A stretch of DNA of 64,000 nt from Escherichia coli (GTDB taxonomy: Bacteria > Pseudomonadota > Gammaproteobacteria > Enterobacterales > Enterobacteriaceae). Each line of letters opens with the position of its first letter. Within the stretch, counting starts at the first letter, position 1. The stretch lies in assembly GCF_041248615.1 (NCBI RefSeq), contig NZ_CP158426.1; one strand, given 5' to 3'. The position numbers were made by a program. Positions 59,901 to 62,900 of the stretch are shown here, piece by piece.

Positions 59901-62900
59901 AGATGCCTGAGCATGAACCTGCACCACAGAGGGCTCATAAATGACAACCGTAACGTCGCCAGGATTGATCAGCGTTTGTTTGACGGATGTTTTTCGCGAA
60001 ATAACATCAATAATCAGGCTCATAATGGCATTCCTGATAAATGGCGCACATCCTTAGCGAGTCCATTTATCTAAATAAGACAAAGGTAATCACTCAACAA
60101 CGATGCATACCTGATATTAATAATGGCAGGATTATTTCAAGTCGGGTAAGTCGTTGTATAAGCCCTGTTTAATTCCCGCTAATGGAATAAGGTTATTAAC
60201 CGCAGCGGCATAATTCACTGCGGCGACCCAGCCATCATAATTGGCATTTATTTCAGCCGATTGCGCCTGAAAGACATCTTGCTCGACGGTTAATAGATCA
60301 TTCAGGCTGCGTTTACCCAATTTATATTCATTTTGGTAGACATCTCGCGTTCTGTGCGCACTTTCAGATTGCGCTAACCCAGCCTCTTCACGACCCCGTG
60401 CGCCTGTCCAGTTGGCATATGCCACAGACGCTCGTTGCAGCACATCCAGTTTTGCCTGTTCGACCTGCGAGGCAGAGATTTTTTGTTGCCCTTCGGCCTG
60501 TTGCACCTGGGCAGAAACCGCGCCGCCCTGATACAGCGGCGCGTTAACGTTCAGTTGTAGCTGATCATCCCAATACGAGCGGTCGCTGGTCTGGTAGCGC
60601 GTTTTGCCCCCCTGAATACTCAGCGTTGGCCAGTATTGCGCTTTCGTTTTTTCCACGCCGTACTGTGCTGACTGGCGTAAGTTTTCTGCCGCCAGCACCA
60701 GCGGGATGGACTGGTAATCAATATTTTTCAGCGATACCGGCTGCTCGGCTAATTCAGCAGGTGGCGCGGCTATCGCCTCCGGCTGTACGCCAGTGAGCAC
60801 CGCCAGTTGCGCTTTGGCGCTTGCCATCTGCGCCTGATATTGCTCCAGCGTTGAGCGCATTCCGGCAATGCGCGTCTGGGCCTGTAATTCATCCGACGAC
60901 GAGTTCAGGCCAGCGTTAGCACGCAATGCTGCCATGTTGTAGACGTTTTCCAGCGAGTGAATATTGCGTTGAGCCGCATAGCACAAAGCCTGATAACGAC
61001 TGACTTCCATATAGGCAGTTGCCGTTTTCTCTGCAACATCGGTTAATGTTGCCATCAATTTAAAGCGGTAGCTGTCACGGGCGGCAGTTTGCAGTTTGAT
61101 ATCGTTGTTAGTTTTACCAAAGTCATACACCAGCTGTGTCAGGGTTATGCCATACGAAACGTTGTTATCAAGCCTGCCACTGGAGTCCGTTTGTCGGGAC
61201 GGTCCCGCATTGCCGGTTAATCCAACGTGCGGATACCAGGCACTTTTGGCTTCATCAATTTGCGCTTCGCCAATACCTATCTGCGCCGCCTGTTGAGTGA
61301 CGTCGGGATTTCGCGCAAAGGCGCGTAATATACTTTCCTGTAAAGATAATTGGGCAACTGGCGTTACCGCTGGGGCATTCGCCCATTGTGGCAGCGGTGC
61401 AGCAATTGCAGCTTCTCCCATCACCATAAAACTTATTAAAAAAATAAACCCATTATTTTTACGGCTTTTAAACTGGAATCGCGCCATAGATAAGTCACTT
61501 CCTTCCAGGTCATTATTTTAACTGGTTTTTATAACCAGTCTCATTTTATTAAGAAGGGTAATAACTTGTGCATCTCTTTTGTCGATCATTGATATTGGCA
61601 AAGAAATGCAGCTAAAAAGCTTATACGTTATTTATTTAGAATACACTACGACTTTTAGATTACCATCATACACATTAAGAATAATCCACGGTAATAAGTG
61701 ATTAGCATCACAGATTTATCGCGTATATATCATTTTTTTGTGACTTATTTATTAAAGGAATAAGAAAGGAAATTTGAATTAAAGACAAAGGCGCAGTACA
61801 GGCTGTACTGCGCGCAGAGAGGTGTTATACGGTTTTATTGCGCTTCATGACCATTGCCACAATAAGGCTGAGTAAGATTGCACCAATAATCCATATCAAC
61901 GCACGGCTGCCCTGGGACCACAGGCTGTAGATAAAGCCAACGATCACCAACAACATCACCAACGTACCTACGATAAGAATCGGCAACGAGGCGTGAATAT
62001 CATGACGCAGGCGGATCGCCACCACAAACACCGCCAGATAGCAGATCAAAAAGGTGGCGCTGGCAACGCTGGCGAGTGAGCCTAAATTCAGCGCCGCCGT
62101 CATCAGCATAATCAGCACCACGACAATGATGTTGCCCCAAGTACTCTGCCGCCACAGGGATTTATTCATTAGCTTCGGCAGTTCGCGTTCGCTGCCCATG
62201 TTGTCCATGATGTTAAACACGGCGAACAGGTTCGCGTTGATGGCTGAAGCCGTCGCCAGTAAAGCGCCGATGACGACGATCACATAACCCACATGCCCGA
62301 GCAGCGGAGAAGCTGCCTGCGCTACGGCGGTATCGGCATATTTTTCTAACTCTAATGCCGATACATCGCTAAGCAAAACCAGCGCCAGCGAGATATAAAG
62401 CAACGTGGTAACGCCAATCGCCACCAGAAACGCCCGTGGCATAATGACCTGCGGATCTTTCACTTTATCCGCCGCGTTCGCCATCATGCCAAAGCCCGCA
62501 TAGGCAAGGAAGGTTATCCCGATACAGGAGAAGAACGCACCGGAGCTGGGGGGCGCAGAGACGGAAATATGCGCCGGTTGCAGCGACCAGACACCTGCAA
62601 TAATCAGCAATAACAGGATCATCATTTTAATGCCGACGAGGATCACTTCCAGCCGCCCTACCGCATGGTTGCTTAAGGAGTTGAAAAGCGTCATCACCGC
62701 AATGATCCCCAACGCGTAGAGCAATATAAGGTGCTCCTCCTGACTGCCTTCATGCAAAAACTGCACGGCATAAGCGCCAAAAGCACGGGCGACCATGGCG
62801 ATGCTCACCGCCAGCGTCAACAGGTACAATAACGAGAGTGCCAGCGAAAAGACGCCGTTGCCTAATCCGCGACGAAAGAAGTCGATAATACCGCCATTGC

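What the first reader, a model, noticed from the sequence alone, without database searches (positions are those of the whole stretch)
61488..61824. Long AT-rich leader upstream of the TolC-like gene, the likely control region of the secretion operon
A ~340-bp non-coding stretch with A/T tracts (…ttatttatttagaatacactacg…, …atatatcatttttttgtgactt…) separates ybaT from the first gene of the secretion operon. This contrasts sharply with the GC-rich adhesin gene and is typical of regions silenced by H-NS in horizontally acquired DNA. A hairpin at about 61791..61815 (gcgcagtacag-gct-gtactgcgc) likely terminates ybaT.
Basis: inference. Interest (0 to 1): 0.4.

Follow-up and report, generated by a model that had tools for sequence, protein, structure and literature searches.

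The report
Known promoter region of OI-28 secretion operon
This AT-rich gap between ybaT and the TolC-like gene is the already-studied control region of the E. coli O-island 28 adhesin-secretion operon: it holds the ybaT terminator, activator sites, a mapped promoter and a 144-base leader, so it is real but ordinary.

Summary
Window 61488-61824 is exactly the 337-bp gap between ybaT and the TolC-family gene. Its GC is 0.33, against 0.55 for the window and about 0.60 for the adhesin. The hairpin is at 61791-61813.

The locus is O-island 28 of E. coli O157:H7 (ECs0540-0544, Z0608-Z0635), present in 958 of 5426 complete E. coli genomes. Its control region is already characterised in print:
- The fragment drives lacZ and binds RstA (Niu 2025).
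- The operon is PhoB-activated (Yoshida 2010, seen only through citing papers).
- It is strongly RpoS and stationary-phase dependent.
- Cappable-seq in EDL933 maps the main start site to window 61631, with -10 TATTCT and a 144-nt leader. A minor start maps to 61613.

My additions are inferences: a Pho-box-like promoter module, a CRP-like site at -73.5, and a conserved leader fold that pairs the Shine-Dalgarno sequence.

H-NS silencing is plausible but unproven. The operon rises about 5-fold in an hns mutant of strain 042, but so do the core neighbours glsA-ybaT. I found no ChIP data.

Recent horizontal acquisition is contradicted. The K-12 ybaT-cueR spacer is a deletion scar, and E. whittamii has the same junction.

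Verdict: real, ordinary, already known.

The parts
61825..63117 (-). ybaT (APC-family amino-acid permease), the upstream gene
   Evidence: ORF of 430 aa. Pfam AA_permease_2, E 4e-31. RefSeq annotation in matching genomes.
61791..61813 (-). ybaT intrinsic-terminator hairpin: 10-bp stem, 3-nt loop, starting 11 nt after the ybaT stop codon
   Evidence: Terminator scan. RNA fold -16.4 kcal/mol, z -4.1. Nine pairs are kept in 5 sequences from 3 lineages, and the only changes are to G-U. Population polymorphisms fall at the loop and stem top, 61803-61804.
61777..61790 (-). Interrupted U-tract of the terminator (CTTTGTCTTTAATT)
   Evidence: It is a cleaner T-run in Escherichia sp. E1V33 and E. whittamii.
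61768..61781 (-). Published 'RstA box'. The window reads TAATTCAAATTTCC; O157 and 042 read TAATTCAAATTACC.
   Evidence: Niu et al. 2025 place the box at -294 to -280 from the ATG, and deleting it abolished the EMSA shift. The coordinate match is 61781 - 61487 = 294. The box is polymorphic at 61770 and 61776, and the window's T at 61770 is the minority allele (5 of 33). It is poorly conserved in the other Escherichia species.
61740..61757 (-). Pho-box-like direct repeat CTTTAATAAATAAGTCAC (14 of 18 to CTGTCATAWAWCTGTCAY). Inferred PhoB site.
   Evidence: It has the same geometry as K-12 pstS Pho box 2, which is CTTACATATAACTGTCAC, then 10 nt, then TATTTT. The box plus -10 geometry occurs in 11 of 5000 shuffles. 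No polymorphism was seen. PhoB control of the operon comes from the literature.
61724..61729 (-). TATATA, a candidate -10 of a PhoB-dependent upstream promoter. The predicted start is near 61717 and is not observed in the available data.
   Evidence: It lies 10 nt downstream of the Pho-like box. GATATATA is invariant in 5 sequences. No start site was seen here in 8 phosphate-replete conditions.
61713..61722 (-). GCGATAAATC, 8 of 10 to the high-affinity H-NS motif TCGATAAATT. The motif is recalled from memory (Lang et al. 2007).
   Evidence: This is inference only.
61697..61712 (-). CRP-like palindrome TGTGA-tgctaa-TCACT, centred at -73.5 relative to the main start site
   Evidence: It occurs in 1 of 5000 shuffles. 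Both half-sites are invariant while 4 of the 6 spacer bases differ in E1V33 and E. whittamii.
61638..61643 (-). -10 hexamer TATTCT of the main promoter P1. The best -35 at 17-bp spacing is weak: ATGGTA, 61666-61661.
   Evidence: It sits at exactly -12 to -7 of the mapped start. The block GATGATGGTAA.CTAAAAGTCGTAGTGTATTC is invariant except for one base in 5 sequences.
61631..61631 (-). Main transcription start site (EDL933 position 579751), giving a 144-nt 5' UTR
   Evidence: Cappable-seq in EDL933 detected it in 6 of 8 conditions. Mean relative read scores were 0-4 in exponential phase and 9-65 in stationary phase. Coordinates were mapped through L038.
61613..61625 (-). Minor promoter P2: -10 TATAAG (61625-61620) and start site 61613 (EDL933 579769)
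   Evidence: Cappable-seq, stationary M9 only.
61570..61609 (-). Leader hairpin H1: 10-bp stem GCAUUUCUUU/AAAGAGAUGC closing a 20-nt loop
   Evidence: The stem arms are invariant across three lineages while the loop sequence is completely different in E1V33 and E. whittamii. Six of 25 population polymorphisms lie in the loop, and one in the stem (C to T) keeps a G-U pair.
61494..61565 (-). Predicted SD-occluding helix. GUUAUU..CCUUCU (61565-61552) pairs with GGAAGG.AGUGAC (61506-61494) and encloses a small hairpin (61539-61521).
   Evidence: Fold of 91 nt: -18.9 kcal/mol, z -2.2. The core CCUUCU/GGAAGG helix is also predicted in E1V33 and E. whittamii, though with weak z-scores there (-1.25, -0.59). 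It is also in the alignment consensus. The SD unpaired probability is 0.14. There is no covariation, because the paired bases are invariant.
61498..61506 (-). Shine-Dalgarno region GGAAGGAAG, 10 nt before the ATG
   Evidence: Read directly from the sequence.
60132..61487 (-). TolC-family outer-membrane gene (tolC28 / Z0608 / ECs0540), first gene of the operon
   Evidence: Pfam OEP, E 2e-47. RefSeq annotation.
35911..60023 (-). Rest of the operon: giant BapA/SiiE-like RTX adhesin (39249-60023, 6924 aa), ABC exporter (37083-39245) and HlyD-family adaptor (35911-37086)
   Evidence: ORFs. Pfam BapA_N, Big_13, HemolysinCabind, ABC_membrane/ABC_tran and HlyD_3.

Best explanation
The 337-bp gap is a composite intergenic control region of the E. 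coli O-island 28 type I secretion / giant-adhesin operon. I describe it 5' to 3' on the minus strand.

(1) A stem-loop with an interrupted U-tract ends glsA-ybaT transcription.

(2) About 150 bp of AT-rich upstream DNA carries sites for response regulators. One is the published RstA box. Next to it is a Pho-box-like repeat with its own -10-like hexamer, which I infer to be the PhoB-dependent entry point. A CRP-like palindrome also lies here.

(3) A promoter with a good -10 (TATTCT) and a poor -35 fires at 61631, mainly in stationary phase. This fits the reported RpoS dependence and the need for activators. A minor start lies at 61613.

(4) The resulting 144-nt leader is conserved. It is predicted to form a hairpin and a helix that pairs the Shine-Dalgarno sequence, which may limit translation of the TolC-like gene.

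Shown by published experiments: promoter activity of the fragment, RstA binding, the start-site position, stationary-phase/RpoS dependence, and PhoB dependence.

Inferred here: the exact Pho box, the CRP site, terminator function, and the leader fold with any effect it has.
For: Identity of the locus.

Promoter activity and RstA:
- lacZ fusion, ChIP-qPCR and EMSA, with loss of binding when the box is deleted (PMC12758282).
- The box maps to 61781-61768.

Start sites:
- Cappable-seq in EDL933 gives 579751 (window 61631) in 6 of 8 conditions. Scores are 0-4 in exponential and 9-65 in stationary phase.
- A second start at 579769 (window 61613) appears in stationary M9 only.
- A -10 hexamer lies at exactly -12 to -7 of each start.

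Growth-phase control:
- Z0608 is 55-fold and Z0609 20-fold RpoS-dependent.
- ECs0540 and ECs0541 rise by log2 3.5 and 4.1 at entry into stationary phase, while ybaS and ybaT are not in that table.

PhoB:
- Cited.
- The Pho-like box has pstS-type geometry, seen in 11 of 5000 shuffles.

CRP-like site: 1 of 5000 shuffles. Its half-sites are invariant while the spacer varies.

Terminator.

Constraint on the spacer: identity to E1V33 and E. whittamii is 0.81, against 0.72-0.80 at third codon positions of the flanking genes.

Leader fold.
Against: - The promoter-consensus scan finds nothing above chance and misses P1.
- The -35 of P1 is poor.
- No start site was seen at the inferred PhoB promoter, although no phosphate-limited condition was sampled.
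- The Pho-like box has 4 mismatches, and 5 in E1V33 and E. whittamii.
- I could not read the paper that defined the real PhoB site.
- The CRP-like site was noticed after looking at the alignment, and -73.5 is one base off the canonical class I spacing.
- The RstA box matches the RstA consensus poorly, is polymorphic, and is not conserved outside E. coli.
- The leader helices show no compensatory changes (0 of 88 pairs).
- A population variant (C61538T plus G61536A, 4 of 33 sequences) weakens the inner hairpin.
- The terminator U-tract is interrupted. TolC-like transcript levels track ybaT across 042 mutants, so some read-through is possible.
Confidence: 0.8

Rival explanations
1. The region is above all an H-NS nucleation site. 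H-NS polymerises on the AT-rich DNA and silences the operon as foreign DNA, and RstA, PhoB and sigma-S act mainly as counter-silencers.
For: - GC is 0.33 over 337 bp, the lowest in the window.
- An 8-of-10 match to a high-affinity H-NS motif lies at 61722-61713.
- In E. coli 042 RNA-seq the TolC-like gene goes from 38.5 to 195.8 RPKM in hns and to 337 in hns hns2. The adhesin rises 4.7-fold and the ABC gene 4.5-fold in hns.
- Weak antisense or orphan starts inside the gap (EDL933 579617 and 579708, minus strand) are typical of AT-rich DNA.
- Homologous operons in other genera also have AT-rich upstream regions, GC 0.24-0.42.
Against: - I found no ChIP or footprint data for H-NS at this site.
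- The core genes glsA and ybaT rise by the same factor in the same hns sample, while copA rises only 1.6-fold.
- Both these neighbours and the operon are RpoS-dependent. From general knowledge, hns mutants accumulate RpoS, so the effect may be indirect.
- The operon is not silent in wild type: P1 is clearly active in stationary phase.
- The DNA is not a recent acquisition.
Confidence: 0.4
2. The operon is mainly expressed by read-through from the RpoS/GadX-controlled glsA-ybaT unit across a leaky terminator, and the gap contributes little promoter activity of its own.
For: - The terminator U-tract is interrupted.
- RpoS-dependence ratios form a gradient across the unit: ybaS 19, ybaT 70, Z0608 55, Z0609 20.
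- ybaT and TolC-like RPKM track each other across five 042 strains: 40.6/38.5, 71.5/58.7, 272.8/195.8, 92.0/82.7 and 279.7/337.0.
Against: - A capped primary 5' end lies inside the gap in 6 of 8 conditions.
- The isolated fragment drives lacZ.
- ECs0540 and ECs0541 are induced more than 10-fold at stationary-phase entry in a table where ybaS and ybaT do not appear.
- The hairpin is strong (-16.4 kcal/mol) and conserved.
Confidence: 0.1
3. The conserved 144-nt leader is itself a regulatory RNA element. Its SD-occluding helix keeps the TolC-like gene translationally off until a factor such as an sRNA, a protein or a standby ribosome opens it.
For: - The last ~110 nt before the ATG are almost invariant across three Escherichia lineages, whereas flanking third-codon identity is 0.72-0.80.
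- The SD is predicted to be paired, with unpaired probability 0.14.
- The core CCUUCU/GGAAGG helix is predicted independently in all three lineages, and the outer GUUAUU/AGUGAC extension in the window.
- H1 has invariant stems and a fully diverged loop.
- Changes in the 3' arm of the inner hairpin in E1V33 and E. whittamii keep pairing only as G-U, which works only on the mRNA-sense strand.
Against: - There are no compensatory double changes.
- z-scores are modest: -2.2 in the window and only -0.6 to -1.3 in the other species.
- No Rfam family matches.
- The leader is not a thermometer by prediction: SD accessibility is flat from 20 to 42 C.
- A natural variant weakens the inner hairpin.
- Sequence invariance could equally reflect protein-binding DNA.
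Confidence: 0.3

Closest known systems
tolC28 regulatory region of O-island 28 in EHEC O157:H7 (Niu et al. 2025, Gut Microbes, PMC12758282; ecs0540-ecs0544 of Yoshida et al. 2010)
   Same: It is the same locus and the same intergenic region. The spacer is 337 bp and 98.5% identical to O157:H7. Gene order is the same: ybaT, TolC-like, adhesin, ABC, HlyD, cueR. The RstA box is at the same distance from the ATG, and the mapped start site and its -10 are identical in sequence.
   Different: - The window's strain carries a T-for-A change inside the published RstA box (61770), which is a minority allele.
- Its adhesin gene is one intact 6924-codon ORF. In O157 it is split into two ORFs, named rtxA28 and rtxB28 in that paper.
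- The published promoter was a BPROM prediction. Its -10 coincides with the -10 implied by Cappable-seq.
PhoB-dependent promoters of the E. coli pho regulon (pstS type)
   Same: An 18-bp direct-repeat box ending in GTCAC lies exactly 10 bp upstream of a TA-rich -10 and takes the place of a -35, as at pstS. The operon is reported to be PhoB-activated.
   Different: Only 14 of 18 positions match the consensus. No start site has been observed downstream of it. It lies 86 bp upstream of the promoter used in phosphate-replete stationary phase. The experimentally defined PhoB site was not available to me.
Salmonella SPI-4 siiABCDEF and bapABCD, and Pseudomonas lapA/lapEBC giant-adhesin T1SS loci
   Same: Each is a dedicated TolC-like/ABC/HlyD exporter encoded next to a giant Ig-repeat RTX adhesin. 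Homologues fetched here from other genera also have AT-rich upstream regions.
   Different: The control region has no detectable sequence homology outside Escherichia. No Pho-like or CRP-like sites were found upstream of the homologues in other genera. Gene order differs from sii. The regulators of SPI-4 (HilA/SprB, from general knowledge) were not tested here.
H-NS-silenced promoters of horizontally acquired islands (for example LEE1, proV, bgl)
   Same: A low-GC, long intergenic region lies in front of a compositionally atypical operon, and expression rises in an hns mutant.
   Different: No binding data exist. The derepression is shared with core neighbours. The operon is measurably expressed in wild type. 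The locus is ancestral at this chromosomal site rather than an insertion.

Membership tests
Intrinsic (Rho-independent) terminator | G+C-rich stem-loop directly downstream of the stop codon on the sense strand | tested here: met
   The stem has 10 bp, 6 of them G-C, with a 3-nt loop, and starts 11 nt after the ybaT TAA. It folds at -16.4 kcal/mol, z -4.1.
Intrinsic (Rho-independent) terminator | Run of U immediately after the stem | tested here: inconclusive
   The tail CUUUGUCUUU passes the scan's rule of at least 5 T in 8 but is interrupted. E1V33 and E. whittamii have cleaner runs.
Intrinsic (Rho-independent) terminator | A measured transcript 3' end at the U-tract | not testable with these tools
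   I found no Term-seq data for an island-bearing strain. K-12 lacks the 3' arm of the hairpin.
Bacterial sigma-70-family promoter | Primary (triphosphate) 5' end mapped experimentally | tested here: met
   Cappable-seq start sites at EDL933 579751 and 579769 map to window 61631 and 61613.
Bacterial sigma-70-family promoter | -10 hexamer at about -12 to -7 | tested here: met
   TATTCT (4 of 6) precedes the main start and TATAAG (5 of 6) the minor start, each at exactly -12 to -7.
Bacterial sigma-70-family promoter | -35 hexamer at 16-18 bp spacing | tested here: not met
   The best hexamer at 17-bp spacing is ATGGTA (3 of 6). The published predictions ATGATG and TATGAT lie 20 and 21 bp from the -10. 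This is compatible with an activator- or sigma-S-dependent promoter.
PhoB-dependent (pho regulon) promoter | Pho box: two 11-bp direct repeats with a CTGTCAT core | tested here: inconclusive
   CTTTAATAAATAAGTCAC matches 14 of 18. A hit this good occurs in 84 of 5000 shuffles.
PhoB-dependent (pho regulon) promoter | Box placed about 10 bp upstream of the -10, replacing the -35 | tested here: met
   A 10-nt spacer precedes TATATA, identical in geometry to pstS box 2. Box plus geometry occurs in 11 of 5000 shuffles.
PhoB-dependent (pho regulon) promoter | PhoB- and phosphate-dependent transcription | not testable with these tools
   This is reported by Yoshida et al. 2010, as cited in PMC3978041 and PMC12846084. 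The original paper is not held.
CRP class I activation site | TGTGA-N6-TCACA palindrome | tested here: met
   TGTGAtgctaaTCACT matches 9 of 10. It occurs in 1 of 5000 shuffles, and the half-sites are invariant in 3 lineages.
CRP class I activation site | Centre near -61.5, -72.5, -82.5 or -92.5 | tested here: inconclusive
   The centre is at -73.5 relative to the start site 61631, one base off -72.5.
CRP class I activation site | cAMP-CRP dependence of transcription | not tested
   I found no data.
H-NS-bound silenced region | Extended AT-rich tract | tested here: met
   AT is 67% over 337 bp.
H-NS-bound silenced region | Derepression in an hns mutant that is specific to the target | tested here: inconclusive
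   Expression rises 5.1-fold in 042 hns, but the flanking core genes rise 4.8- to 6.7-fold.
H-NS-bound silenced region | H-NS occupancy (ChIP or footprint) | not testable with these tools
   No dataset was found.
Horizontally acquired genomic island | The empty site in island-free genomes is intact, showing insertion rather than deletion | tested here: not met
   The K-12 spacer keeps the last ~95 bp of the HlyD-family gene and half of the terminator. The same junction is in 4459 genomes.
Horizontally acquired genomic island | Atypical base composition | tested here: met
   The adhesin, ABC and HlyD genes are 0.56-0.65 GC, against about 0.52-0.56 for the flanking core genes.
Type I secretion operon with giant RTX adhesin | OEP/TolC, ABC exporter, HlyD adaptor and an RTX-repeat substrate encoded together | tested here: met
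   Pfam OEP, ABC_membrane plus ABC_tran, HlyD_3, and BapA_N, Big_13 and HemolysinCabind.

The most novel reading that the evidence does not exclude
The conserved 144-nt leader is a functional RNA element in its own right. Hairpin H1 has invariant stems and a free loop, and an anti-SD helix keeps the TolC-like gene translationally closed. This would add a post-transcriptional checkpoint to the published RstA, PhoB and RpoS inputs. In addition, 'O-island 28' is not an acquired island but an ancestral Escherichia locus removed from K-12-type genomes by one deletion that also took ybaT's terminator and cueR's native upstream region.
Probability: 0.3. Interest if true: 0.35.

Novelty: already known. 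Interest (0 to 1): 0.2.

Why it matters
The operon encodes a giant adhesin system needed for early gut colonisation by EHEC O157:H7 (PMC12758282). Its switch region decides when the adhesin is made. The finding adds little.

The parts still open are:
- whether H-NS acts directly on this region;
- where PhoB binds and starts transcription;
- whether CRP and the structured leader contribute.

The deletion-scar observation corrects the common description of OI-28 as an acquired island. It also implies that K-12 is a derived state for ybaT termination and cueR upstream control.

Tried and rejected
- Rfam scan of 61000-62300 at E up to 10 gave only chance-level hits (snoRNA, miRNA, CRISPR repeat), all far below gathering scores.
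- There is no RfaH ops/JUMPStart element (GGCGGTAG) in 59900-61900.
- RNA thermometer idea: predicted SD accessibility stays at 0.14-0.15 from 20 to 42 C, so it is not supported.
- Leader peptide idea: a 10-codon uORF (61573-61541) exists. A 1-nt insertion in E1V33 and E. whittamii changes its frame and length while the nucleotides stay conserved, so the constraint is not on a peptide.
- Homology of the spacer outside Escherichia: nhmmer with the 5-sequence profile found nothing upstream of 23 homologous TolC-like genes in other genera. These regions also had no Pho-like or CRP-like sites.
- Adding sequence diversity for covariation: a metagenome scan with an invariant 28-mer from the leader returned 33 contigs, all E. 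coli-like with 0-6 differences.
- H-NS occupancy data: two literature searches and one supplement search found none covering this locus.
- The Yoshida 2010 paper, which describes the PhoB-regulated promoter, is not held. I could not check my Pho-box assignment against it.
- The simple sigma-70 consensus scan found two weak sites at 61572-61515. They do not coincide with either mapped start site and are no more than chance.
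Full report
**What is there**

On the minus strand the window reads glsA (63120-63926), ybaT (61825-63117) and then a 337-bp gap (61488-61824). After the gap come a TolC-family gene (60132-61487), a 6924-codon adhesin gene (39249-60023), an ABC exporter (37083-39245), a HlyD-family adaptor (35911-37086) and cueR (35507-35914).

Pfam confirms these assignments: OEP; ABC_membrane and ABC_tran; HlyD_3; and BapA_N, Ig-like and RTX repeats.

The gap has GC 0.326. It overlaps the lowest-GC 337-bp stretch of the whole 64-kb window, which averages 0.548. Both quoted A/T strings are present.

The hairpin is at 61791-61813, not 61815. On the ybaT-sense strand it has a 10-bp stem and is followed by CTTTGTCTTT. 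As RNA it folds at -16.4 kcal/mol with z = -4.1.

**Which locus this is**

The gap and its flanks are E. coli chromosome. The full 337 bp occurs in 958 of 5426 complete genomes at 95-100% identity. These include O157:H7, O55:H7, EAEC 042 and many clinical isolates.

RefSeq calls the adhesin 'BapA-related adhesin SiiEA'. In O157:H7 Sakai the genes are ECs0540-ECs0544, and in EDL933 they are Z0608, Z0609, Z0615, Z0634 and Z0635. This is O-island 28.

**What is already published about this very region**

- Niu et al. 2025 (PMC12758282) cloned the region upstream of tolC28 in front of lacZ. Activity depended on RstA.
  - RstA enriched the region about 6-fold in ChIP-qPCR and shifted it in EMSA.
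  - Deleting a box TAATTCAAATTACC at -294 to -280 abolished the shift.
  - That box is window 61781-61768, right after the terminator. The window's strain reads TAATTCAAATTTCC.
- Yoshida et al. 2010 identified ecs0540-0544 as PhoB-activated pho-regulon genes with a PhoB-regulated promoter upstream. I could read this only through citing papers.
- Dong and Schellhorn 2009 found Z0608 55-fold and Z0609 20-fold RpoS-dependent.
- Bergholz et al. 2007 found ECs0540 and ECs0541 up by log2 3.5 and 4.1 at entry to stationary phase.
- Cappable-seq in EDL933 (PMC10469882) lists a gene start site for EDL933_RS02775 at 579751 in six of eight conditions.
  - Mean relative read scores were 0, 4.1, 0 and 2.4 in exponential cultures.
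  - They were 64.7, 53.0, 31.3 and 9.2 in stationary cultures.
  - A second start at 579769 appears only in stationary M9.

I mapped the start sites through the EDL933 sequence, whose spacer has the same 337-bp length. They fall at window 61631 and 61613. Each is an A, preceded at exactly -12 to -7 by TATTCT and TATAAG respectively.

The main transcript therefore carries a 144-nt leader. The distal ~190 bp of the gap is terminator plus upstream regulatory DNA, not leader.

**What I add from the sequence (inference)**

I aligned the gap from the window, Sakai and 042 with the syntenic gaps of Escherichia sp. E1V33 and E. whittamii, which also lie between ybaT and the TolC-like gene. The alignment shows 81% identity. 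That is higher than the third-codon identity of the flanking genes, 0.72-0.80.

The conserved blocks are:

- **The terminator stem.** Changes occur only to G-U, and the two other species have a better U-run.
- **CTTTAATAAATAAGTCAC (61757-61740), then 10 nt, then TATATA.**
  - This matches the Pho-box consensus at 14 of 18 positions.
  - It has the same box-to-(-10) geometry as K-12 pstS box 2.
  - Box plus geometry appears in 11 of 5000 dinucleotide shuffles.
- **TGTGA-N6-TCACT (61712-61697).**
  - Its half-sites are invariant while the spacer varies. It appears in 1 of 5000 shuffles.
  - It is centred at -73.5 from the main start site, which is close to a class I CRP position.
- **The P1 core promoter block.**
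- **The last ~110 nt before the ATG.**

In the leader, RNA folding predicts a hairpin H1 (61609-61570). Its stems are invariant but its 20-nt loop is completely different in the other species. That loop also holds 6 of the 25 polymorphisms seen among E. coli sequences.

Folding also predicts a helix in which GUUAUU..CCUUCU (61565-61552) pairs with the Shine-Dalgarno region GGAAGG.AGUGAC (61506-61494). The predicted unpaired probability of the SD is 0.14.

This structural evidence is weak. z is about -2.2 in the window and only -0.6 to -1.3 in the other two species. There are no compensatory changes, and one natural variant weakens the inner hairpin.

**H-NS**

The composition fits an H-NS target. 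There is an 8-of-10 match to a high-affinity H-NS motif at 61722-61713.

The only functional data I found are the raw RNA-seq tables for strain 042 (PMC5861252, Table S1). RPKM values:

| Gene | WT | hns | hns hns2 | Fold change in hns |
|---|---|---|---|---|
| TolC-like | 38.5 | 195.8 | 337.0 | 5.1 |
| adhesin | 22.5 | 106.2 | 83.0 | 4.7 |
| ABC exporter | 38.1 | 171.6 | 28.7 | 4.5 |
| glsA | 58.0 | 279.5 | 288.9 | 4.8 |
| ybaT | 40.6 | 272.8 | 279.7 | 6.7 |
| copA | 118 | 188 | 133 | 1.6 |

The core genes glsA and ybaT rise as much as the operon does. Both units are RpoS-dependent, so the effect may run through RpoS rather than through direct binding.

I found no ChIP data. I put direct H-NS control at about 0.4.

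**Read-through**

The parallel behaviour of ybaT and the TolC-like gene, together with the interrupted U-tract, leaves room for some read-through.

Three results show that the gap has its own promoter:
- a capped 5' end lies inside the gap;
- the isolated fragment is active as a reporter;
- ECs0540 and ECs0541 are induced at stationary-phase entry in a table where ybaS and ybaT do not appear.

**'Horizontally acquired'**

The 124-bp K-12 ybaT-cueR spacer aligns on its left with the end of ybaT and the 5' arm of this hairpin. On its right it aligns with the last ~95 bp of the island's HlyD-family gene, running straight into cueR.

This composite junction is found in 4459 of 5426 genomes. The other 958 carry the operon. 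The K-12 version no longer folds into a terminator (z = +0.9).

Together with the synteny in E1V33 and E. whittamii, this shows that the operon is ancestral at this site and was deleted. It is not a recent insertion into a K-12-like site.

The high GC of the operon still allows an older foreign origin.

**Verdict**

But it is an ordinary bacterial promoter region that has already been dissected experimentally.

The open points are direct H-NS action, the exact PhoB site and its start site, a CRP input, and a possible translational role of the leader. These are modest.

Interest is 0.2. Novelty: already known.

Noticed in passing
window 35911-36010 and 61791-61830; L002 4868-4993 (K-12): The K-12 ybaT-cueR spacer is a deletion scar. 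The 5' half of the ybaT terminator is fused to the last ~95 bp of the HlyD-family gene. The same junction is in 4459 of 5426 complete E. coli genomes, and the scar no longer folds as a terminator. This contradicts the published description of OI-28 as an acquired island.
   Followed up: yes
window 35507-35914 (cueR) and 35911-37086 (HlyD-family gene): The cueR start codon overlaps the HlyD stop (ATGA), so cueR sits at the tail of the secretion operon. EDL933 Cappable-seq lists a cueR start site in all 8 conditions at 604687, which is 160 nt upstream of the ATG and inside the HlyD gene. That region is absent from K-12.
   Followed up: partly
window 39249-60023: The adhesin is one uninterrupted 6924-codon ORF here. 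In O157:H7 it is two ORFs (ECs0541 plus ECs0542, published as two proteins RtxA28 and RtxB28). It is flagged as a pseudogene in 042, EDL933 and isolate 362, and isolate 362 differs from the window by a 1-bp indel inside the gene.
   Followed up: partly
window 33471-33807 and 33811-34827: This is the second-lowest GC stretch of the window (0.297). It lies just upstream of a YadA-family autotransporter adhesin ORF, in a ~2.6-kb cueR-ybbJ segment that K-12 lacks.
   Followed up: no
window about 31500-32950: About 1.44 kb is present here but absent from the otherwise near-identical isolate 362 (NZ_OW967178.1). It contains two same-strand ORFs of 176 and 240 aa and looks like an IS3-family insertion next to ybbJ.
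   Followed up: no
window 61765 (+) and 61674 (+): EDL933 Cappable-seq lists weak antisense or orphan start sites inside the gap (579617 and 579708, minus strand in EDL933). These point back towards ybaT.
   Followed up: no
L007 (JAIJJM010000516.1, 'Collinsella sp.' MAG) 482-1837: A contig binned as Collinsella carries a TolC-like gene 99% identical to the window's. It is most likely a mis-binned E. coli contig.
   Followed up: no
L011 (E. whittamii) 3001-3660: The TolC-like reading frame is truncated to 219 codons in E. whittamii, yet the upstream spacer remains well conserved.
   Followed up: no
window 61770 and 61776: The published RstA box is polymorphic among E. coli. The window's T at 61770 is the minority allele (5 of 33 sequences), and it changes a position that matches the RstA consensus in O157.
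   Followed up: partly
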